Source of the DNA: a virus
Direction: 5' to 3' (one strand)
DNA: 64,000 bases
IMG/VR virus record: IMGVR_UViG_3300027782_000040
Of the stretch, positions 2,021 through 60,960 are shown piece by piece. The number at the start of each line of letters is the position of its first letter. Positions within the stretch are counted from its first letter, which is position 1. The notes beneath the pieces were generated by a model. The model was not told where the DNA came from. It was given only the letters and a program-made list of their open reading frames with translations, and did not search any database. The position numbers and the translations under genes are program-made.

Positions 2021-3083
2021 CTTTCTTAAATGGTTTTTCGTATTTAGGTTTCATTATTCTCCAAATAATATGTTCATATGGTTTTCCGTCCCACATTGCA
2101 AATAATATTGGTCTATAAAATGTTTCAACATCACATTTTTCTAAATGTAATGCAAAATCTTTTTTTGTTGGTTCAGGGTCTACATCTCCATATTTTCCGT
2201 ATCTAAAATAATCATGTATCTTACCACAATGTTCTCCAATTCTGTATTTGGCATATTCAAAAGAACTCACTTGTTGTTTAACCCACTTGTAAAATTCATC
2301 AGGTACCCTATCTAAAAATTCATCCATAGGTTTTCCATCCCTCAATAATTCCCAAATATCTTTGGATGAAAAATTGGTTAATATTTTATGTAATCTTTTA
2401 TACTCTTCCCCTTTGATTTTCATACGAAAACCATTCTTAAATTTAATTACATATCCCTCTCTATCCTTTTGTATTTCTTCTTTAAGTAAATCATATCCTT
2501 CTCCCCATGTTTTATATGTCATTACTAATTCCCAACCACCTTCTTGCATAAAGAATAAAGAACTGTCAGGAACTTCATTTCCACTTTCAGTATGAATGGC
2601 ACCAAGTAAAACTAACTTTTCTTCATCACCGTAATTTACTACTATTCGGTTTTCTTTGAAAATTATTTCAAACAAATATGTGTTGTCTTTTCTTAATGAA
2701 CTAACATCATATTTCTTATCAAGAATTTCTTTACCCTTAATTGCCTGTTGTGATGTGAAGGATCCGCGTGTTGATAATATCCATTCATTTTCATAATTAA
2801 AAAGAATACCTAACGATCCATCCATCTTTTCATAGACCACATAATCTTCATTAGGTATTTCTTCTGGTTTATGTTCTTCGTAGTTAAAAAATTTCTTAAA
2901 TGGTCTTGCAACAATCTCACCTTTTGAATTGGTAACCAATCCACGGCACATAATAGTTATTTCATCCCAAAGACGCTCATATTGAACTTTAGGAGAATAA
3001 TTCCATATAGTCAAATCTTTAGTAGGATGTGTTTGTTTATGCAACAAACCATCAGTATAATATTTCTCTAAAATTTCTAACAT
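2010..3083 (-). CDS. RNA ligase (T4 Rnl1-like)
   Basis: Motif I EKMDGSLG, plus CRGLV, ARPFKKFFN, STRGSF, EGYV and MKIK. Likely start at 3083 (TAATG overlap with the upstream stop). Confidence 0.9.
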   Translation of the reverse strand: MLEILEKYYTDGLLHKQTHPTKDLTIWNYSPKVQYERLWDEITIMCRGLVTNSKGEIVARPFKKFFNYEEHKPEEIPNEDYVVYEKMDGSLGILFNYENEWILSTRGSFTSQQAIKGKEILDKKYDVSSLRKDNTYLFEIIFKENRIVVNYGDEEKLVLLGAIHTESGNEVPDSSLFFMQEGGWELVMTYKTWGEGYDLLKEEIQKDREGYVIKFKNGFRMKIKGEEYKRLHKILTNFSSKDIWELLRDGKPMDEFLDRVPDEFYKWVKQQVSSFEYAKYRIGEHCGKIHDYFRYGKYGDVDPEPTKKDFALHLEKCDVETFYRPILFAMWDGKPYEHIIWRIMKPKYEKPFKKDEN

Positions 3084-3325
3084 TAGTTTATTGTTTTGTG
3101 AAATCCGATGTTGTAGGTATGTTTCAACCAATTAAAGGACAAATATACTCCACACATTTTGTTTTTCCAAATTGATACATGAGAATCGGGTTGACATGTT
3201 TCAAAATAAAAATAAACAAAAGGTAATGGATATATTAACCATTGGTTTCTATGTAAGTTAGCGTGAAATTTCATCTTTGGTTTTGGGTTAATTGTTTTAA
3301 CATAAGAAGAAATAAATTGACTCAT
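3083..3325 (-). CDS. hypothetical protein
   Basis: 80 aa ORF overlapping its neighbours by one base on both sides (translational coupling). Confidence 0.6.
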   Translation of the reverse strand: MSQFISSYVKTINPKPKMKFHANLHRNQWLIYPLPFVYFYFETCQPDSHVSIWKNKMCGVYLSFNWLKHTYNIGFHKTIN

Positions 3326-3753
3326 TAAAGTTTAACTTGAAATCTATTCTTCATTTGTTGAAGTTTATCTTCGGGAACTCCGTGAACATTTTCATTACCA
3401 TGTCTATTTTCAACAACCACCGTATGAACACGATAATTGTACCTTTCTGCCATTTTAAAATATTCGTCCATTTCCCATTCTTGAGTAAAAGTATTTGCAA
3501 CAACTATCCTTGCCTTTTGTTGTCTCATCCTTTCTGAACATCTAAATTGACAATAGTTATGCGCTTCTTTTATTTTTTGTGAATCAAAATCGTATTCACT
3601 ATTTTCGTTGATAAAAAAATCATCAGCCGATAAAACCTCAGGTTCATCTGTACTTCTAAGTTGTAATATGATTTTAGCTAACGTTGATTTACCAGAACCA
3701 GGTAACCCTCTTAATAATATTAATTCGCCCTGAGCTTCGTTTACACTATCCAT
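3325..3753 (-). CDS. P-loop polynucleotide kinase-like protein (AAA_33 type)
   Basis: Walker A GLPGSGKST, plus SADDFF, VANTF and HGVP motifs. Confidence 0.85.
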   Translation of the reverse strand: MDSVNEAQGELILLRGLPGSGKSTLAKIILQLRSTDEPEVLSADDFFINENSEYDFDSQKIKEAHNYCQFRCSERMRQQKARIVVANTFTQEWEMDEYFKMAERYNYRVHTVVVENRHGNENVHGVPEDKLQQMKNRFQVKL

Positions 3754-3770
3754 AGGAGAGATTTAGAATT

Positions 3771-3806
3771 AAAAAATTGGGGTCAGTATGAAACCAACCC
3801 CGATTT
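3771..3806 (-). terminator. Rho-independent terminator after the lipoprotein gene
   Basis: Minus strand GGGGTTGGT-TTCAT-ACTGACCCC stem followed by AATTTTTT. Confidence 0.55.
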
Positions 3807-3807
3807 C

Positions 3808-3999
3808 TTATTTTTGTGGTATTTCAGTTTTTACTTCACCACCTGTTACAGGTGCCACTGTTGAATCAGCAACTACTGCAGTTGTATCTGCAACAGGAGC
3901 CATTGTAGAGTCCGTTGTTTCTGTTGCGGCTGACCCTGAACCACATGCTGTTAGTGTAAGTGCTACACCAAGAGCTAAGATAAATGTTAATTTTTTCAT
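3808..3999 (-). CDS. small lipoprotein
   Basis: Signal peptide MKKLTFILALGVALTLTA-C with a lipobox; short Ala/Thr/Asp-rich mature part. Confidence 0.8.
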   Translation of the reverse strand: MKKLTFILALGVALTLTACGSGSAATETTDSTMAPVADTTAVVADSTVAPVTGGEVKTEIPQK

Positions 4000-4043
4000 A
4001 TATAGTAAATATACGAAAGTTTAACGATAAAACCAAATTCCAT

Positions 4044-4142
4044 AAAAAAACCCCAACGAGATGTCGGGGTTTAAGGTCTTTCGGTGGGTTCAACCCCACT
4101 TAATTTAAGAAACGAAAAGGTTATCGACAAAGAGAACCTATA
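4044..4142 (-). ncRNA. candidate ~100 nt structured small RNA
   Basis: No credible ORF. Preceded by the TATTTATA motif (4147-4154), contains two hairpins and ends in a terminator hairpin plus T run. Confidence 0.4.
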
Positions 4143-4178
4143 GTGATATAAATATATATAACTTTACTAAAAAGTCAA

Positions 4179-4868
4179 CTATTTATTAAAATTTTTATTT
4201 AATTCGATATATTTTAAAATTTCAATCGCAAAATCTTTATGAGCCTCTTCCCCCCAATGAAAATCATCAACAAGATTATTGGTTTCAATTGTAATAGAAG
4301 GACGTTTTTTAAACGGAATTAAAAAATCATAAAATTCTTTTTGGTAATCATCATTATCTAATTGATAATCGTTAGATGGGTCGACCCATGTCCAATGGTA
4401 AACCAAATTATTTTTTAAAATATGATTAATGACCTTAATGTAGTCGGTAACCTCAGTCCAAAAAACTGAATATTTTAATCTATTCATTGATAAATCAACT
4501 AATGATTCAAATGAAACATCAATAAAATTGTAAACTTTTTCATTTGCACCGCCAATTAAAATAGGAAAAAGTCTATTATCTTTTGTTGCAGCATTAAATC
4601 TCATATTTTGGGTCCAACCAAAAATAACAATATCACCATCATTTATTCGATTTATATTATCAACAAACCAATGAAATATTGTTTGATTACATGTTCCCGC
4701 AATAGATTTATCAATTAAGTTTATATTGATGGTTTCACTTATAATTTCAGAAAAAACTTTCGGTGGGTACCCTTTGTATTTTACATAATCATACGAAACT
4801 TTACCTTCTTTTTGTAATTTAAACGATGAAGTAAACGAATCACCAAAAACCCATAAATTTTTATCCAT
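4179..4868 (-). CDS. SGNH/GDSL-like hydrolase
   Basis: N-terminal FGDSF and C-terminal DDFHW (DxH) motifs. Confidence 0.6.
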   Translation of the reverse strand: MDKNLWVFGDSFTSSFKLQKEGKVSYDYVKYKGYPPKVFSEIISETININLIDKSIAGTCNQTIFHWFVDNINRINDGDIVIFGWTQNMRFNAATKDNRLFPILIGGANEKVYNFIDVSFESLVDLSMNRLKYSVFWTEVTDYIKVINHILKNNLVYHWTWVDPSNDYQLDNDDYQKEFYDFLIPFKKRPSITIETNNLVDDFHWGEEAHKDFAIEILKYIELNKNFNK

Positions 4869-37418: not shown

Positions 37419-37451
37419 ACTAATAAATATTTTATTTTAATATAATATTTT

Positions 37452-38207
37452 TTATGAAAACATTAAACGCTTAATGTTTTTAATACTTTCTTGAAGTTTT
37501 TTATTTTCATCCTCTTCTGGATTAACTTCAGGTTTTTCCTGTGGTTTTGGTTGAGGAGGTTCTTGTGTTTTAGGTTCTTCGGGTGTTGGTTGAGTCGGTT
37601 CTTTCGGTGGCGTTGGTGTCTTTGTTGGTTTTGTTTGTGGTGTTGGTTGTGGTAATTCTGTTGGTGTTGGTTCCGTAGGTTCAGTAGGTTTAACTTCAGG
37701 CTCAACTGGTTGAGGTTCTGTAGGTTGTGGTTGAACTGGTTTAGGTGTTGGTTTACTAACTGTAGGTTTAACAATCCTTGGTTTTTTAACTTCAGGTTTA
37801 TTTGTCCAATCAGCAGTTACATAAGTAACACTCATAGATTTATCATCACCTTCTTTATAGTCAGGTCTTTTTTGGTCAAACTTACTATCACTAACCTTTA
37901 AATTACTCATACGACCAACCATAAAAGTTCTCCAACCTGTTTTATCAAATCCTTTTTTGGATACTGATGGTGGTTGAACATACGCACGAACAACTAAATT
38001 ACCTTTTTTATTTAAACCTAATGCAACAGCTTCTGCGTCAATTCTATTACCTGGTTTAACACTATTTTTTGCGGGTTTTCTTGGACCACTATAAAAAAAA
38101 GATATTTTATTCCTACTTTTGATTGCGTCAACAATAGGTTTTGTTTTAGTCGTCTTTAATATATTTTGTTCTTCAATAACATCGAAGAATGTTTGATTAA
38201 AATTCAT
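37452..38207 (-). CDS. WYL-like domain protein with a Pro/Thr/Glu-rich tail
   Basis: AIKSRNKISFFY...R...E...LG...VRAY...GWRTFMVGRM pattern. Confidence 0.65.
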   Translation of the reverse strand: MNFNQTFFDVIEEQNILKTTKTKPIVDAIKSRNKISFFYSGPRKPAKNSVKPGNRIDAEAVALGLNKKGNLVVRAYVQPPSVSKKGFDKTGWRTFMVGRMSNLKVSDSKFDQKRPDYKEGDDKSMSVTYVTADWTNKPEVKKPRIVKPTVSKPTPKPVQPQPTEPQPVEPEVKPTEPTEPTPTELPQPTPQTKPTKTPTPPKEPTQPTPEEPKTQEPPQPKPQEKPEVNPEEDENKKLQESIKNIKRLMFS

Positions 38208-54783: not shown

Positions 54784-57222
54784 ATGGCAAATTCAAACAG
54801 AGTATTCGTTTCTCCAGGTGTTTATACATCAGAGAAGGATTTAACATTCGTAGCACAAAGTATAGGTGTTACAACATTGGGATTAGTGGGAGAAACCTTA
54901 AAAGGTCCAGCTAATGAACCAATATTAATTTCAAATTTTGACGAATTTAAAACATATTTCGGAAGTACATCACCTGAAAAAGATGGTAATGGTAATCCAA
55001 AATATGAATTAGGTTATGTCGCTAAATCTTATTTACAAGAGTCAAATCAATTATTTGTAACAAGAGTATTAGGTAAGACAGGTTATAAAGCAGGTAAAAC
55101 ATTCGGTATTAAAACATTAGGTACAGATGCAGATATTGTAGTGGTAGCATTAAGATCAAGAGGACATTATTCAGGAGAAACTTTAGTATTTGAAGTTACT
55201 GGAAATACATCCTTCGTTCTTAGTGGTGCAACATTAACAACTAATCCATTATCTGAATTTGATATTCATGTTACAGGTGCAACAGGTGGAGCTAAAGTTT
55301 TTACTTGTAGTTTAGACGTTACATCATCAAAATATATAACTAAAGTTTTAGGAACAAGTCCATATGATAAAGATAGAAGTGATGTTCCTTTATATGTTCA
55401 CGAAGTATATCCAAACTTAACTAAAAATTTATATCACCAAGGTATGATTAGTGGTTTAAGTTTTACTGAAGTATATAACGCTGAAGGTGACAATTTTTCA
55501 AATCCTTGGGCTTTTCCAACGTCACCTACTATAGTTTCTGAAGTAAGAGGTGGTAAAGTTGATGATTTATTTGATATAACCACAATTTCAGACGGAAACG
55601 CTGCAAATGAAGAAGTTAAAATTACAATTCAAAATATCAATATTGAAACAGGTGAATTTGACATACTAGTTAGAGATTTTAACGATACAGATGAAAACAT
55701 GTCAGTTTTAGAAAAATTCTCAAGATGTTCAATGAATCCTGATGTTGCGGGATATGTTGCTAGAAAGGTAGGAACATCAAATGGTGATTATACTTTGAAT
55801 TCTAAATATATTATGTTAAGTATGGACCCTAATGCACCATCAAATGCGTTCCCTGCTGGATTTAAAGGGTTTACAAACGCAACTTTATCAGGGTCAACAA
55901 AATTAGGTAATGTTCTTTATAAAACTGAATTTTTTGATTCAGGAGATGCGATTGGTCCAGCTGGATCACCATATTCAGCAACAACAAGTAACGGAGACAA
56001 ATATAGAAAAACATCTTTAGGTTTATCTTCAGATAGTAATTTTAGTTTTGACGCAGATTTGTTCAAATATAAAGGTTCAGGAACATTGAATAGTACTGAT
56101 GGATTTCACTTATCAACTAATGCATCTTCAATTACAGGTACAACATATCAAACAACGGGTTATGATTTGGAAGGTCAAACAGACGCCGCTAACAACAAAT
56201 TAACCAATATTAATTATCGTAAATTTACATTTGCAGTATGTGGTGGTTTTGATGGTTGGGATATCTACAGAAGAGTAAGAACATATGGAGATGCGTATAT
56301 ATTTGGAAAAACAACATACATTTCAGGTCTTACAACAAATGGTGGATTGTTTGACACTGCAAATGGAAACTCCGATTATTATGCTTATTTAGAAGGAATT
56401 CAAACATATGCAAACCCTGAAGCAATAGATATTAACGTATTCGCAACTCCAGGTATTAACTTCTACGACCATAGTTCATTAACAACTCAAGCAATTGACA
56501 TGATTGAAACCGATAGAGCGGATTCAATTTATATTATCGGAGCCCCAAATGAAACTGATGCAACTAACGTTATTGACGATTTAGACGGTATTGCGGTTGA
56601 TTCTAACTATTCAGCCACATATTGGCCTTGGATTCAAGTAAGAGACACAGATAACGCAACTCAATTATATATCCCACCAACAGGTGAGGTTGTTAAGAAT
56701 ATTGCCTTAACTGATAACGTATCTTATCCTTGGTTCGCAGTTGCGGGTTACAGTAGAGGTTTGGTAAACGCAATCAAAGCACAAAAGAAACTTACTCTTG
56801 ACGAAAGAGATGAGTTATATAAGGCAAGAATCAACCCAATTGCAACATTCTCTGATACAGGTACCATTATATGGGGTAACAAAACGTTACAAGTTAGAGA
56901 GTCAGCTTTAGATAGAATCAACGTAAGAAGATTGTTATTAAGAGCAAGGAAATTGATATCTGCAGTCGCTGTAAGGTTATTATTTGAACAAAATGACGAC
57001 CAAGTAAGACAAGAGTTCTTAAGATTGGTAAACCCTATCTTGGAATCAATTAAGAAAGAAAGAGGTTTATATGACTTCCGTGTAAGTGTATCTAATGACC
57101 CAGAGGACATCGATGCTAACACATTAAGAGGTAAGATTTACATCAAACCAACTCGTTCTTTAGAATTCATTGATTTGGAATTTGTAATCACTCCAACAGG
57201 AGCTTCATTCGACAATATCTAA
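54784..57222 (+). CDS. tail sheath protein (gp18-like)
   Basis: SPGVY-x-x-E-x-D, GP, YWPW, PWFAVAG-x-x-RG, INPI, WGNKT, RINVRRL and IKPTRSLEFI motifs. Confidence 0.95.
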   Translation: MANSNRVFVSPGVYTSEKDLTFVAQSIGVTTLGLVGETLKGPANEPILISNFDEFKTYFGSTSPEKDGNGNPKYELGYVAKSYLQESNQLFVTRVLGKTGYKAGKTFGIKTLGTDADIVVVALRSRGHYSGETLVFEVTGNTSFVLSGATLTTNPLSEFDIHVTGATGGAKVFTCSLDVTSSKYITKVLGTSPYDKDRSDVPLYVHEVYPNLTKNLYHQGMISGLSFTEVYNAEGDNFSNPWAFPTSPTIVSEVRGGKVDDLFDITTISDGNAANEEVKITIQNINIETGEFDILVRDFNDTDENMSVLEKFSRCSMNPDVAGYVARKVGTSNGDYTLNSKYIMLSMDPNAPSNAFPAGFKGFTNATLSGSTKLGNVLYKTEFFDSGDAIGPAGSPYSATTSNGDKYRKTSLGLSSDSNFSFDADLFKYKGSGTLNSTDGFHLSTNASSITGTTYQTTGYDLEGQTDAANNKLTNINYRKFTFAVCGGFDGWDIYRRVRTYGDAYIFGKTTYISGLTTNGGLFDTANGNSDYYAYLEGIQTYANPEAIDINVFATPGINFYDHSSLTTQAIDMIETDRADSIYIIGAPNETDATNVIDDLDGIAVDSNYSATYWPWIQVRDTDNATQLYIPPTGEVVKNIALTDNVSYPWFAVAGYSRGLVNAIKAQKKLTLDERDELYKARINPIATFSDTGTIIWGNKTLQVRESALDRINVRRLLLRARKLISAVAVRLLFEQNDDQVRQEFLRLVNPILESIKKERGLYDFRVSVSNDPEDIDANTLRGKIYIKPTRSLEFIDLEFVITPTGASFDNI

Positions 57223-57544: not shown

Positions 57545-58033
57545 ATGGCAGATTTATTAATGAAAATGCCGGTTCCTTACGAACCGAAAAGAAAAAATAG
57601 ATTTATCCTAAGATTTCCATCATCTTTAGGAATAAATGAGTGGTATGTATTCTCCACAGCGAGACCATCTGCTAAAATTAAATCAGTTGAGATTCCTTTC
57701 TTGAACACAAAAACTTATGTTGCTGGTCAATTTGAGTGGGAAGAGATTAAAGTTCAATTTAAAGACCCAATTGGTCCTTCAGCTTCTCAAGCACTTATGG
57801 AATGGTTCCGTTTACATGCGGAGTCAGTTACAGGTCGTATGGGATATGCTGCGGGTTATAAGAAAGACATTGAATTGGAGATGTTAGACCCAACGGGAGT
57901 TGTGGTTGAAAAATGGATTTTACAAGGTTGTTTCTTAACAAGTTTGAACTTCGGTGATTTAGATTACTCAAGAGATGATTTGGCGACAATTGACGCTTCA
58001 TTAAGAATGGACCGTTGTATTCAAGTTTATTAA
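57545..58033 (+). CDS. tail tube protein (gp19-like)
   Basis: EPKRKNRF, RP, YVAG...W, YKKDI and W-x-L-x-G-x-F motifs. Confidence 0.9.
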   Translation: MADLLMKMPVPYEPKRKNRFILRFPSSLGINEWYVFSTARPSAKIKSVEIPFLNTKTYVAGQFEWEEIKVQFKDPIGPSASQALMEWFRLHAESVTGRMGYAAGYKKDIELEMLDPTGVVVEKWILQGCFLTSLNFGDLDYSRDDLATIDASLRMDRCIQVY

Positions 58034-58134: not shown

Positions 58135-58884
58135 ATGGACGAAACAAGAATAGACCCAACAATCGCATACGATGTGGTGGAATTACCAACTAAAGGTATC
58201 CATTATAAAAACAAAAATAAATCAGTTAGAGTTGCATACCTAACCGCAAGTGACGAAAACATTCTATCATCACCAAGTTTAATTGGTTCTGGTTTAGTTG
58301 TTGATGAATTACTAAAAAGAAAAATATTAGACAAAACGTTATCTGTTGATGAAATTGTTGATGAAGATAGACAAGCAATTCTTATATTTTTAAGAAATAC
58401 TGCTTTTGGTTCAGAATATACAATTACGGTAACTGACCCAAAGACAAATGAACCATTTACGGTTGATGTTGATTTAAGTGAAATTAAAGTGAAAGATTTT
58501 AAGTTAGAAGAAGATTCTAATGGTGAATATAAGTACTTCATGGAGAAAAGTAAAAATGATATTACATTTACTTTTTTATCATTAAAACAAGAAAAAGAAA
58601 TTGATGAAATTAGAAAAAGTTGGAATGGTAATGGAGTTGCTCCGATTATCACCAAACAACTTGAAATGATGATTAAGTCAGTTAATGGAAATAAAGATTT
58701 AATGAATATTAGAAATTTGATTGAAACCTTACCAATTAAGGATTCACAAAGTTTTAGAAAATTCATTAACCAAGTTAAACCGGGGTTGGATCTAACCCAA
58801 AATGTTACAACCCCGTCCGGAGAGACAATCCAAGTTGAAATTGGATTCGGGGTAGAATTTTTTCGTCCTTTCTACGGATTATAA
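58135..58884 (+). CDS. tail assembly chaperone / baseplate hub assembly protein (gp26-like)
   Basis: VELPTKG-x-x-Y, LTASDENIL, DR-x-AIL-x-x-LR and FFRP; lies between tube and tape measure. Confidence 0.75.
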   Translation: MDETRIDPTIAYDVVELPTKGIHYKNKNKSVRVAYLTASDENILSSPSLIGSGLVVDELLKRKILDKTLSVDEIVDEDRQAILIFLRNTAFGSEYTITVTDPKTNEPFTVDVDLSEIKVKDFKLEEDSNGEYKYFMEKSKNDITFTFLSLKQEKEIDEIRKSWNGNGVAPIITKQLEMMIKSVNGNKDLMNIRNLIETLPIKDSQSFRKFINQVKPGLDLTQNVTTPSGETIQVEIGFGVEFFRPFYGL

Positions 58885-59017
58885 AAAAGGACAATTAGAC
58901 GAAATTTTATTTTTGGTTAAAAGAGGGTTCTCTTATGGGGACATCTTATCTATGCCAGTGTATATTAGAAGATACTATATTAATTATATGATAGAGAAAG
59001 AGACTGAAAATAGTTAA
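58862..59017 (+). CDS. probable frameshift extension of the tail chaperone (gp51/GT-like)
   Basis: +1 frame opens exactly at TTT TTT CGT; FVLSTDY...GFSYGDILSMPVYIRRYYI. Confidence 0.6.
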   Translation, partial: FVLSTDYKKGQLDEILFLVKRGFSYGDILSMPVYIRRYYINYMIEKETENS

Positions 59018-59034
59018 TCAGTCTATTTATATGT

Positions 59035-60960
59035 ATGGCAGATGTTTTAAAATATACAAAAGGAGCTAAAAGTGCAGAAGCGGCAGCAACGGCATTTAAA
59101 ATTGGTGAAGGACGTATGCCAGATACGAATGAAGCAATCCAAATAGGTAACGCTTTTAATCCATTAAAAGACTCAAATACTGCTCGTTGGTCTGAAAATG
59201 TTTCAAAAAATATAGGGGGTGATAACCTATCCACTTTTGTAAATACAAAAATGGGGTATGTAGGTAAAGCAATGGGATTAGCAAGTGACGCCGTTAAATT
59301 TTTAGCGGACGGAACCAACCAAATTTTTAAATCTCAAATGGGTATACCGGAAGAAAATCCTGCAATGAGTAAAGTTTTGGAGATGGTTAAGGGAGGAGGA
59401 CTTAACCCCTTAGAACTAATGTCAAGTTTTGTTAAAGGGGCATTTACCGAAATATTAGATCAGTTATCCCAAGAATCAGCATTACTTTCAAGTGTAAATA
59501 GAGAAACAGGTATAAGTGGTAAACTATCTGAAGCATTAAGAGATGACATGAAAGAAGCATCTATAGAAGGTGCAAGATTTGGTTTTAAATTAAAAGATAT
59601 TGGAGATTTTTATATAAAGTTAACGTCAGAATCTGGTAAATTTTCCTTAATAAATAAATCATTAACAGATGATACGATTAAAGTCGCGGGTGCATTAGGT
59701 AGAACATTACCTGAAATGGCTGTGAGTATTGGTGAATTTGAAAAAGTAGGTTTAGGTGCGGATAAAACAATTAAGACGTTAGGAGATTCGGCAACAAAAT
59801 TAACATCATTAGGTTTAAGTGCTAGAAAGGTAACAACTGATTTACAATCAAATTTAGGTAAACTTAATGAGTATGGATTTAAAAATGGTGTTCAGGGTCT
59901 TGAGACTATGGCGAAGAAGGCTAGTGAGTTTAGAATGGAAATGCAATCTACATTTACAATTGCAGATAAAGTATTTAATCCTGAAGGTGCAATAGATTTG
60001 GTTGCTAATTTACAAGTTTTAGGTGGTGCAATTGGTGATTTTAATGACCCACTTAAATTGATGTATGATGCAACAAACAACGTAGAAGGACTACAAGACG
60101 CATTAATAAAGGCATCAGGTTCGTTAGCAACATATAACCAACAACAAGGTAGATTTGAAGTTACCGGTATTAATTTAAGGAAGGCCAAGGAAATGGCAAG
60201 TGCATTAGGAATCACAATGGGTGAATTGAATAAGATTTCAATTGCAGCAGCTGAAAGGACTCAAGCAACTACAGCATTAATGGCAACTGGTTTAGTGATG
60301 AAAGACGAAGATAGAGAGTTTTTAACAAACTTATCTCGTATGGATGGTGGTGAAATGAAAATCACAGTACCAGCGTCCTTAATGAAAGAATTAGGATTAA
60401 AAGAACAATCGTTAGCATTAAAAGATTTGTTACCTAATCAACAAAAAATATTATTAGCTAATAAAGAAGCGTTTGAGAAAATGAACCCTAAAGATATGGC
60501 GATGGCTCAACTTACCGAAACACAACAAATGTCAAGAGGTATTGATGTGATTGCTTCATATTATAAAGTAAGGGGTGCTGAAATGGCTAGAGGGATTGCT
60601 AAAGGTACTGGAGGAAAAGAATTTGAAGAACTTAGAGCTACAATTGATAACTATTCTGCAAGTTTATCATCGGCCCAAAAATCAACAATAGAAAAAGATG
60701 CCGAAAAGTTCGGTGATAAAGCTAGAAATGTAATAAGCAAGGTGGTACACCCTATTGATACCATTAAAAATTATATGAATAGAGCAAGTCAATACCAATC
60801 AGAACCCCCTCCACCAAAAAATTCAGAAGTAACAGTAAAACATCAGTTAATTGGAATGCAGGAGATGACAGTGTTTAATAGAGAAATTATGAAAAACCCA
60901 TCCTCTTTTAATTTATTTGATTTTAAAAATCCAAAGGAATATGGAAACTCTAATGTTTAA
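59035..60960 (+). CDS. tape-measure-like protein
   Basis: 641 aa Ala/Gly/Leu-rich helical protein after the chaperone. Confidence 0.65.
   Translation: MADVLKYTKGAKSAEAAATAFKIGEGRMPDTNEAIQIGNAFNPLKDSNTARWSENVSKNIGGDNLSTFVNTKMGYVGKAMGLASDAVKFLADGTNQIFKSQMGIPEENPAMSKVLEMVKGGGLNPLELMSSFVKGAFTEILDQLSQESALLSSVNRETGISGKLSEALRDDMKEASIEGARFGFKLKDIGDFYIKLTSESGKFSLINKSLTDDTIKVAGALGRTLPEMAVSIGEFEKVGLGADKTIKTLGDSATKLTSLGLSARKVTTDLQSNLGKLNEYGFKNGVQGLETMAKKASEFRMEMQSTFTIADKVFNPEGAIDLVANLQVLGGAIGDFNDPLKLMYDATNNVEGLQDALIKASGSLATYNQQQGRFEVTGINLRKAKEMASALGITMGELNKISIAAAERTQATTALMATGLVMKDEDREFLTNLSRMDGGEMKITVPASLMKELGLKEQSLALKDLLPNQQKILLANKEAFEKMNPKDMAMAQLTETQQMSRGIDVIASYYKVRGAEMARGIAKGTGGKEFEELRATIDNYSASLSSAQKSTIEKDAEKFGDKARNVISKVVHPIDTIKNYMNRASQYQSEPPPPKNSEVTVKHQLIGMQEMTVFNREIMKNPSSFNLFDFKNPKEYGNSNV

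What the first reader, a model, noticed from the sequence alone, without database searches (positions are those of the whole stretch)
58850..59017. Probable programmed +1 (or -2) frameshift in the tail chaperone at UUU_UUU_CGU
Seen: the chaperone ends GAA TTT TTT CGT CCT...TAA. The +1 frame has a TAG immediately before this T run, then stays open for 51 more codons to a stop 17 nt before the tape-measure ATG, with no early ATG. The -1 frame stops after 11 codons. Known: tail chaperone G/GT frameshifts sit between tube and tape measure and are usually -1, and UUU_CGU is the +1 shift site of influenza PA-X. Inference: a Phe-tRNA slip from UUU to UUC yields a fused gp26+gp51-like product, whereas T4 encodes these as separate genes.
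Basis: partly seen in the sequence, partly recalled or inferred. Interest (0 to 1): 0.75.

Follow-up and report, generated by a model that had tools for sequence, protein, structure and literature searches.

The report
Conserved +1 frameshift in tail chaperone
This phage most likely makes a short and a long version of its tail-assembly chaperone by letting some ribosomes slip one base forward on a run of U's, and the same short/long pair is encoded in phage T4 as two separate genes (gp26 and gp51), which may explain why T4 seemed to lack this nearly universal phage trick.

Summary
The 249-aa gene at 58135-58884 ends GAA TTT TTT CGT CCT ... TAA. The +1 frame is closed by TAG just before the T run. 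It then stays open to 59017, 17 nt before the next gene.

The gene belongs to Pfam PF12322 (T4 gp26/gp51 hub assembly chaperones) and lies between the tail tube gene and the presumed tape measure gene.

Evidence that the +1 ORF is translated as a C-terminal extension:
- 76 close and 154 diverse metagenomic relatives, plus seven cultured phages, keep an in-frame UUU_Y site, a 0-frame stop within a few codons, and a +1 ORF of 50-107 codons.
- Codon-position variation switches from frame 0 to frame +1 at the site.
- 58 of 154 lineages have no possible start codon for the +1 ORF.
- A few phages encode the same domain in frame. One of them has a short gene and a long gene in tandem, as T4 does. One huge phage carries the domain in the -1 frame behind U_UUU_UUC.

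The best reading is a programmed +1 ribosomal frameshift giving a 293-aa long form, analogous to lambda G/GT. No protein or RNA data exist.

Homology of the extension to the gp51 C-terminus is only moderately supported.

I found no publication describing this. This scan reached the same conclusion earlier on related genomes.

The parts
54784..57222 (+). tail sheath gene (812 aa)
   Evidence: Pfam Phage_sheath_1 and Phage_sheath_1C; phrog_23 at E 9e-68
57545..58033 (+). tail tube gene (162 aa)
   Evidence: phrog_4542 tail tube at E 4e-26; weak Pfam T4 gp19 hit
58135..58884 (+). frame-0 ORF: short form of the PF12322 (T4 gp26/gp51-like) chaperone, 249 aa
   Evidence: PF12322 at 36.6 bits (cut-off 24.5); phrog_150 baseplate hub at E 7e-12. 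All 120 best database clusters are 249 aa long.
58853..58855 (+). TAG stop in the +1 frame immediately upstream of the slip site
   Evidence: Read. It excludes any upstream start for the +1 ORF in this phage.
58858..58866 (+). shift site TTT TTT CGT (UUU_UUU_CGU). tRNA-Phe is proposed to re-pair from UUU to UUC (58862-58864).
   Evidence: Invariant T6C in 76 close relatives. An in-frame UUU_Y is present in all 157 diverse loci. The second codon is TTT in 144 of the 157 diverse loci (142 of the 154 unique ones) and never TTC, although TTC makes up 25% of Phe codons elsewhere in the same genes.
58865..59017 (+). +1-frame extension ('T-like' domain, 50 codons plus TAA), predicted helix - short helix - long helix
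   Evidence: Third-position variation pattern in the +1 frame. A profile of this domain finds 1984 representative proteins, including C-termini of 308-331 aa in-frame PF12322 proteins. The profile also hits the alternate-frame ORF in 8 annotated phage records that were not used to build it.
58135..59017 (+). predicted long form, 293 aa (frame 0 to 58863, then frame +1 from 58865), junction ...GVEFF/VLSTDYK...
   Evidence: Translation with one +1 step (P0124). It aligns colinearly with natural in-frame long forms.
59035..60960 (+). presumed tape measure protein (641 aa)
   Evidence: Assigned by position only. The gene in this position is annotated as tape measure in immuto, HSE3, SP-15 and LIS04. 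It has no Pfam, PHROG or NCBIfam hit.

Best explanation
The gene at 58135-58884 encodes a tail/baseplate-hub assembly chaperone of the T4 gp26/gp51 family. Most ribosomes terminate at TAA 58882-58884 and make the 249-aa short form. A fraction shift +1 on UUU_UUU_C: peptidyl-tRNA-Phe re-pairs from UUU 58861-58863 to UUC 58862-58864, or equivalently from the first UUU. These ribosomes read GUC next and continue for 50 codons to 59017, giving a 293-aa long form that carries a small helical C-terminal domain. By analogy with lambda G/GT and P2 E/E+E', the shared N-terminal part would coat the tape measure or hub protein encoded just downstream. The extra domain of the rarer long form would recruit the tube or hub, and neither form would stay in the virion. 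What is shown: the site, the two frames, their conservation, the coding constraint in the +1 frame, and the existence of in-frame and two-gene versions in other phages. What is inferred: that the shift is ribosomal and +1, its efficiency, and the chaperone roles of the two forms.
For: Family and position:
- PF12322 and phrog_150 hits; gene order sheath-tube-chaperone-[641 aa].

Conservation:
- 76 close relatives (69-98% aa identity) all keep GAR TTT TTT CGY CCT and the +1 ORF.
- 120 of the 120 best database clusters are exactly 249 aa.
- 157 of 157 diverse loci (26-70% identity to distant members) end F-[FL]-[WRYF]-P plus 1-6 aa, with a +1 ORF 54-107 codons past the stop wherever the contig is long enough to show it, while the -1 frame is short.

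Nucleotide-level constraint:
- The second codon is TTT in 142 loci, CTT in 11 and CTA in 1, never TTC. The control TTT fraction is 0.75.
- The Pro codon is fixed as CCT, because the +1 frame reads GGC CTN (Gly-Leu).

Coding constraint:
- Variability peaks at frame-0 third positions upstream (0.256) and at +1-frame third positions downstream (0.335). This includes the 28 nt before the first possible start, TTG 58913.
- 58 of 154 lineages have no ATG, GTG or TTG for the +1 ORF.

Natural variants:
- Natural in-frame long forms of 308-331 aa exist.
- L251 has a short gene whose +1 frame is dead, followed directly by an in-frame long paralog.
- LR756511 has the domain in the -1 frame behind U_UUU_UUC.

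Link to T4:
- T4 gp26 (208 aa, ends KEFFELL) and gp51 (249 aa) both match PF12322 over about 200 aa.
- The long-form profile aligns with the gp51 family to both C-termini, at probability 93.7%, E 1.9e-7.

Literature:
Against: There are no protein, ribosome-profiling or RNA data for this phage or any relative.

No conserved stimulator was found:
- The hairpin at 58865-58892 has z = -1.2, and one of its pairs is broken in most relatives.
- No conserved Shine-Dalgarno-like motif lies upstream.
- CGU is not rare in the window's genes, at 6.8 per 1000 codons and the second most used Arg codon. The +1 A-site codon GUC is rare, at 2.5 per 1000.

In-frame UUU_Y occurs 157 times in the window's long ORFs, so the tetranucleotide alone cannot define a programmed site. 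A T6/T7 run would also allow transcriptional slippage or a -2 shift. The downstream 641-aa gene is called a tape measure by position only.
Confidence: 0.8

Rival explanations
1. Transcriptional slippage: RNA polymerase loses one U (or adds two) on the T6/T7 run. A subset of mRNAs then encodes the long form in a single frame, and the ribosome does not shift.
For: About 90% of lineages keep an uninterrupted T6 or T7 run. The window clade keeps T6 strictly.
Against: Lineages with interrupted runs keep the +1 ORF and the domain. These are TTT CTT TGG (12 loci), TTC TTT TGG (5 loci), TTT CTA TGG (one IMG/VR locus), TTT CTA TTC (L003), and TTC TTT CGT in the Streptococcus and Bacillus phages. By general knowledge, T6 is short for efficient slippage by bacterial RNA polymerase. 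The LR756511 variant uses a canonical ribosomal -1 heptamer.
Confidence: 0.1
2. A -2 ribosomal frameshift on the U run reaches the same frame but adds one more Phe, giving the junction ...EFFFVLSTDYK.
For: On U6/U7, peptidyl-tRNA-Phe can re-pair perfectly two bases back. -2 shifts that look like +1 shifts are known in phage tail chaperone genes (PRFect preprint PMC10274946).
Against: In lineages with TTT CTT TGG or TTC TTT, a -2 re-pairing is poor while a +1 re-pairing on UUU_C or UUU_U is perfect. Natural in-frame long forms align best with the +1 junction length.
Confidence: 0.06
3. The downstream ORF is an independent small gene, starting at TTG 58913 or at a non-canonical start, and no fusion protein is made.
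For: Gene callers and annotators list it as a separate small ORF in immuto, HSE3, SP-15, RM378 and Mel-JY01. 96 of 154 lineages have some ATG, GTG or TTG in the overlap.
Against: In this window TAG closes the +1 frame directly before the site, and the 16 conserved codons between the site and TTG 58913 show a third-position-only pattern of change. 58 of 154 lineages have no start codon. The domain always begins exactly at the site. In-frame fused and two-gene versions show that the domain works attached to a PF12322 body.
Confidence: 0.03
4. Sequencing error or a recent inactivating indel in a homopolymer: the true gene would be a single 293-aa ORF.
For: Removing one T would fuse the frames.
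Against: The same T6C with a 0-frame stop appears in 76 independently assembled relatives. No in-frame version appears among the 120 closest protein clusters. The 0-frame tail (RPFYGL) is itself conserved.
Confidence: 0.01

Closest known systems
Lambda gpG/gpGT and P2 gpE/E+E' tail assembly chaperones made by programmed frameshifting (Levin 1993; Xu, Hendrix and Duda 2004, as cited in PMC5009743)
   Same: The gene sits between the tube and tape measure genes. A short product comes from normal termination and a rarer C-terminally extended product from a shift near the 3' end. The downstream ORF has no start of its own. The arrangement is conserved despite very low sequence identity.
   Different: The direction is +1 on UUU_Y, not -1 on an X_XXY_YYZ heptamer. 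The protein family is PF12322, and no Pfam tail-chaperone family is hit. The protein is about twice as large (249 aa), and in most members it has two zinc-ribbon knuckles.
Phage T4 gp26 and gp51 (baseplate hub assembly chaperones, PF12322)
   Same: The window's protein is in the same Pfam family. gp26 ends at the same EFF motif as the 0-frame product. gp51 carries about 48 extra C-terminal residues with the same predicted order of elements as the long forms: hairpin, short helix, helix, short helix, Pro-initiated helix.
   Different: T4 encodes the two forms as two diverged, divergently transcribed genes with no frameshift. Homology of the extension is weak at sequence level: HMM -2 bits, hhalign P 0.0018.
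Influenza A PA-X +1 frameshift at UCC_UUU_CGU, and the bacterial +1-prone tetranucleotide UUU_Ynn (PMC5009743)
   Same: UUU_CGU with a UUU-to-UUC re-pairing of tRNA-Phe. There is no obvious stimulatory element, and efficiency is probably low.
   Different: The preceding codon is UUU or GAA, not UCC. CGU is replaced by UGG, UAC, CAC or AGU in most relatives. CGU is not rare in this phage's own codon usage.
HSTV-2 haloarchaeal myovirus tail chaperone ('very likely +1', PMC5009743) and Listeria phage PSA +1 frameshifts in structural genes (Zimmer 2003, cited in PMC9024508)
   Same: These are +1 recoding events in tailed-virus structural or assembly genes.
   Different: The protein families and shift sites differ. 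I did not compare them directly here.

Membership tests
Pfam PF12322 T4_baseplate (T4 gp26/gp51) | Profile match above the curated cut-off | tested here: met
   36.6 bits against a cut-off of 24.5, residues 55-238. T4 gp26 and gp51 score 216 and 178 bits.
Pfam PF12322 T4_baseplate (T4 gp26/gp51) | Two CxxC zinc-ribbon knuckles, present in T4 gp26, SP-15, HSE3 and L003 | tested here: not met
   In alignment A1 the window protein has no Cys at either knuckle (TDPKTNEP and TTPSGET). The fold is probably kept without zinc.
Pfam PF12322 T4_baseplate (T4 gp26/gp51) | C-terminal E/x-F-F motif at the end of the common domain | tested here: met
   EFFRP in the window, KEFFELL at the end of T4 gp26, FFWP in most relatives.
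G/GT-type tail assembly chaperone with programmed frameshift | Located between the tail tube gene and the tape measure gene | tested here: met
   Tube at 57545-58033, chaperone at 58135-58884, 641-aa gene at 59035. The tape measure identity is by synteny with immuto, HSE3, SP-15 and LIS04 only.
G/GT-type tail assembly chaperone with programmed frameshift | Overlapping downstream ORF without its own start, under coding constraint from the shift site onward | tested here: met
G/GT-type tail assembly chaperone with programmed frameshift | -1 shift on an X_XXY_YYZ heptamer | tested here: not met
   The -1 frame closes after 11 codons, and the extension lies in the +1 frame. Only LR756511 has the -1 arrangement.
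G/GT-type tail assembly chaperone with programmed frameshift | Sequence or fold homology to known tail assembly chaperones (HK97 gp13 2OB9, YqbN 3KLU, 3FGX) | tested here: inconclusive
   No Pfam, PHROG or NCBIfam chaperone family was hit. VIA-align on the model of a natural long form ranks 3fgx first (Z 6.0), 3klu sixth (Z 5.0) and 2ob9 ninth (Z 4.8) of 48,161 chains. PMC9603447 calls all three tail assembly chaperones. However, the Z values are low, the three cover different parts of the model, and they did not recur with the gp51 model.
G/GT-type tail assembly chaperone with programmed frameshift | Both products made in a fixed ratio, both required, neither present in the virion | not testable with these tools
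   Needs expression, genetics and virion proteomics.
UUU_Y / PA-X-type +1 ribosomal frameshift site | P-site UUU followed by a pyrimidine, allowing tRNA-Phe to re-pair in the +1 frame | tested here: met
   UUU_U and UUU_C are both present here. An in-frame UUU_Y is present in 157 of 157 diverse loci.
UUU_Y / PA-X-type +1 ribosomal frameshift site | Slowly decoded 0-frame A-site codon | tested here: inconclusive
   CGU is at 6.8 per 1000 codons in the window's ORFs, so it is not rare. The host and its tRNA pool are unknown, and the window has no tRNA genes.
UUU_Y / PA-X-type +1 ribosomal frameshift site | UCC codon before UUU (PA-X cassette UCC_UUU_CGU) | tested here: not met
   The preceding codon is UUU, or GAA if the first UUU is taken.
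prfB-type +1 frameshift | Stop codon in the A site and a Shine-Dalgarno-like stimulator three bases upstream | tested here: not met
   The A-site codon is CGU. The upstream residues and bases are not conserved across lineages.

The most novel reading that the evidence does not exclude
PF12322 proteins are the tail/hub assembly chaperones of a very large, ancient group of contractile-tailed phages, with at least 1984 representative clusters carrying the extension domain. In this reading their short and long forms are normally made by an unstimulated +1 frameshift at UUU_Y. T4's essential but enigmatic gp26 and gp51 would then be the same short/long pair resolved into two genes by duplication. 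That would remove T4 as the classic exception to the G/GT rule and assign a concrete role to gp51.
Probability: 0.55. Interest if true: 0.8.

Novelty: new variant of a known kind. Interest (0 to 1): 0.7.

Why it matters
Programmed frameshifting in tail chaperone genes is one of the most conserved recoding events known. Phage T4 is cited as the exception (PMC5009743), and the role of its 'hub assembly catalyst' gp51 has stayed undefined for decades (PMC3004832).

This locus and several hundred relatives suggest that the T4 superfamily does use the short/long chaperone principle, but with a different protein family and a +1 shift. They also suggest that T4 and a few other lineages replaced the shift with a gene duplication.

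The reading gives a testable function for gp26 and gp51. It offers a large natural dataset of unstimulated UUU_Y +1 sites. It also corrects annotation: many phage records list the extension as a separate small hypothetical gene.

Tried and rejected
- **DNA similarity:** blastn of the region against cultured phages found nothing.
- **Extension versus T4 gp51:** BLASTP found no alignment. The T-domain HMM scored -2 bits against T4 gp51, below shuffled controls. The homology claim therefore rests only on profile-profile and model comparison.
- **Pfam PF28602:** it is precomputed on gp51 relatives. It is not flagged on natural long forms and is absent from the local Pfam copy, so it could not be tested on the window.
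- **Structure searches:** Foldseek against the PDB found no match at E <= 0.001. The matches to tail-chaperone structures from VIA-align were not reproduced with the gp51 model.
- **Stimulators and codon rarity:** the downstream hairpin at 58865-58892 is not significant and not maintained. No conserved upstream SD-like element was found. Rare-codon pausing at CGU is not supported by phage codon usage.
- **Family libraries:** NCBIfam gave no hits.
- **Second paralog:** the window's own assembly is not held, and the nearest record G001 is a 61-kb fragment without the gene. A second paralog elsewhere in this genome therefore cannot be excluded. None lies within the 64-kb window.
- **Literature:** eight full-text searches found no paper describing a frameshift in gp26-like genes or equating gp26/gp51 with G/GT. 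Subscription literature was not searchable.

Full report
**Observation**

- The ORF 58135-58884 (249 aa) ends ...GAA TTT TTT CGT CCT TTC TAC GGA TTA TAA.
- In the +1 frame a TAG (58853-58855) lies directly before the T6 run (58858-58863).
- That frame then stays open for 53 codons to TAA 59015-59017, which is 17 nt before the ATG of the next gene (59035).
- The -1 frame closes 11 codons after the run.
- The only canonical start inside the +1 ORF before its last third is TTG 58913.

**What the gene is**

The gene order is sheath (54784-57222), tube (57545-58033), this gene, a 641-aa gene, then a very large protein. The 249-aa protein matches Pfam PF12322 'T4_baseplate' at 36.6 bits (cut-off 24.5) and phrog_150 'baseplate hub'. 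The 53-aa +1 peptide and the 641-aa protein hit no Pfam, PHROG or NCBIfam family. The tape measure label for the 641-aa gene therefore rests on position alone; the gene in this position is annotated as tape measure in related cultured phages.

T4 gp26 (208 aa) and gp51 (249 aa) both match PF12322 over their first ~200 residues. They are recognisable paralogs. [quoted passage not shown]

**Conservation in close relatives**

IMG/VR holds 80 loci at 69-98% protein identity. In every one that covers the site, the sequence is GAR TTT TTT CGY CCT TTC TAY GGN WTA TAA, with a +1 ORF of 52-53 codons after the site. The 120 best clusters in the 5.8-billion-protein database are all exactly 249 aa, so no in-frame version exists among close kin. 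This excludes a homopolymer sequencing error or a recent pseudogene.

Across 37 unique sequences the variable positions follow the reading frames:
- Upstream of the site they are frame-0 third positions (0.256, against 0.109 and 0.071 for the other two positions).
- Downstream of the 0-frame stop they are +1-frame third positions (0.335, against 0.139 and 0.072).
- The overlap itself is nearly frozen.
- The +1-frame pattern already holds in the 28 nt between the 0-frame stop and TTG 58913, so that stretch is translated although nothing can start it.

**Conservation in distant relatives**

Three cultured or assembled phages at about 30% identity show the same layout: Flavobacterium phage immuto, Microcystis phage Mel-JY01 and the uncultured 484-kb phage LR756508. 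So do Streptococcus phage GXN1, Bacillus phages HSE3 and SP-15, Listeria phage LIS04 and Rhodothermus phage RM378.

Two further IMG/VR scans gave 160 diverse loci.
- All 157 complete ones end x-F-[FL]-[WRYF]-P plus 1-6 residues and a stop.
- The +1 ORF runs 54-107 codons beyond the stop wherever the contig allows.
- The -1 frame is short and erratic.

The commonest site is NNN TTT TTT TGG CCT. Variants are TTT CTT TGG (12), TTC TTT TGG (5), TTT TTT TAC (13), TTT TTT CGT (5) and TTT CTA TGG (1).
- Every site contains an in-frame UUU_Y.
- The second codon is never TTC, although TTC is 25% of Phe codons elsewhere in the same genes. In loci with G+C of at least 0.42, TTC is 36% of Phe codons, yet 30 of 32 sites are still TTTTTT.
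- The Pro codon is fixed as CCT because the +1 frame reads GGC CTN, the Gly-Leu that opens the extension.

58 of 154 unique loci have no ATG, GTG or TTG in the +1 frame between the previous stop and the extension. None of the eight annotated records examined joins the two ORFs; most list the extension as a small hypothetical protein.

**The extension is a domain that works attached to the chaperone body**

The extensions align into a conserved domain of about 50 residues that begins exactly at the site.

A profile of 45 of them (A4) was searched against 1.84 billion representative proteins.
- It found 1984 hits at E <= 0.001.
- Most are 56-130-aa ORFs in which the match starts 6-20 residues in, which looks like spurious gene-caller starts in the overlap.
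- P0251, P0264, P0268, P0282, P0311 and P0365 are 308-331 aa with the domain at the C-terminus of a PF12322 body.
- Their junctions mostly lack the FFWP motif, so they are true in-frame long forms rather than miscounted T runs. The window's predicted long form (P0124) aligns colinearly with them.

In the contig that encodes P0268 (L251), a 289-aa short paralog comes first. It ends NFFWPGLNE with TTC TTT TGG CCC, and its +1 frame dies after four codons. It is followed immediately, with an ATGA overlap, by the 308-aa in-frame long paralog. This is a natural two-gene solution.

In the 595-kb phage LR756511 the domain lies in the -1 frame behind GGT TTT TTC, a canonical U_UUU_UUC heptamer. The domain profile hits that ORF at E 4e-6.

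So the same two parts are joined by a +1 shift, by a -1 shift, in frame, or as two genes. The constant is a PF12322 body with and without the extension.

**Relation to T4**

T4 gp26 ends KEFFELL, at the position where the 0-frame products end. gp51 continues for about 48 residues.

Sequence evidence that this tail equals the extension is weak:
- BLASTP found nothing.
- The domain HMM scored -2 bits.
- hhalign of the two domain alignments gave P 0.0018, probability 15%.

Supporting evidence:
- The full long-form profile aligns with the gp51 family from residue ~41 to both C-termini in the same register (probability 93.7%, E 1.9e-7).
- AlphaFold models of a natural long form (pLDDT 95.4, pTM 0.89) and of a 95%-identical gp51 relative (pLDDT 92.0, pTM 0.86) end with the same order of elements: beta hairpin, short helix at the FF motif, 14-15-residue helix, 5-6-residue helix, then a proline-initiated terminal helix.
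- Nine PDB helix-loop-helix entries appear in both top-50 VIA lists, aligned to these tails.

I rate 'gp26 = short form, gp51 = long form' as likely but not proven.

**Chaperone fold**

Foldseek finds no solved relative. BFVD returns gp26/gp51-like 'baseplate hub' proteins from many phage groups.

VIA-align against 48,161 chains puts 3fgx first (Z 6.0), YqbN 3klu sixth (Z 5.0) and HK97 gp13 2ob9 ninth (Z 4.8). PMC9603447 describes all three as tail assembly chaperones. However, the Z values are below the tool's caution level, the three matches cover different parts of the model, and they did not recur for gp51. This is a lead, not a result.

**Mechanism**

[quoted passage not shown] It gives UCC_UUU_CGU as the influenza PA-X site, and says that G-T frameshifting is conserved in long-tailed phages 'except T4'.

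Here tRNA-Phe can re-pair from UUU to UUC (or UUU), and the next codon read is GUC. I found no stimulator:
- The 7-bp hairpin at 58865-58892 is not significant (z -1.2), and its second pair is broken in 13 of 17 variants.
- Upstream sequence is not conserved between lineages.
- CGU is not rare in the phage's own genes, whereas GUC is.
- The window has no tRNA genes.

In-frame TTT TTT occurs 16 times in the window's long ORFs but is followed by a pyrimidine only twice. One is this site, which hints that the heptanucleotide is avoided. That is weak statistics.

A low-efficiency, unstimulated shift is what the G/GT analogy would need. Transcriptional slippage and a -2 shift cannot be excluded for this T6 run, but the lineages with interrupted runs argue for ribosomal +1.

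**Novelty**

Eight full-text searches found no description of this frameshift and no equation of gp26/gp51 with G/GT. Subscription journals were not covered.

This scan has met the same site in related genomes before. One follow-up (e1-5411793) reached the same conclusion. I saw that note only after my own analysis, and it agrees with it.

**Limits**
- There are no expression data.
- The host is unknown.
- The window's full genome is not held, so a second paralog elsewhere cannot be excluded. None lies in the window.

Noticed in passing
window 58135-58884: The window's PF12322 protein has lost both CxxC zinc-ribbon knuckles that T4 gp26/gp51, SP-15, HSE3 and LR756508 carry (alignment A1).
   Followed up: partly
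window 37451-38207 (minus strand ORF): This ORF holds the only other in-frame TTT TTT Y in 52 long ORFs of the window (TCT TTT TTT TAT). It is a possible second shift-prone site.
   Followed up: no
window 59035-60960: The 641-aa gene called the tape measure has no Pfam, PHROG or NCBIfam hit and no BLASTP similarity to the immuto tape measure protein. Its identity rests on position alone.
   Followed up: partly
L250 (LR756511) 2656-3920: In this 595-kb uncultured phage the extension domain lies in the -1 frame behind GGT TTT TTC (U_UUU_UUC). The same chaperone family therefore also uses a classical -1 shift.
   Followed up: partly
L251 (Ga0209777_10033284) 2890-4678: Tandem paralogs: a short PF12322 gene whose +1 frame is closed, followed directly by a 308-aa long form with the extension in frame. 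This is a two-gene arrangement like T4 gp26 + gp51.
   Followed up: yes
L247 (Rhodothermus phage RM378) 2998-3877: RM378 has the same TTT TTT TGG site and a +1 ORF of about 70 codons. The gene is not next to a tape measure gene, and the extension is not recognised by the domain profile.
   Followed up: partly
T4 gp51 relatives (P0125-P0216): These proteins carry a second precomputed Pfam family, PF28602, which is absent from the local Pfam copy. It is probably the gp51 C-terminal region. It is not flagged on the natural in-frame long forms.
   Followed up: partly
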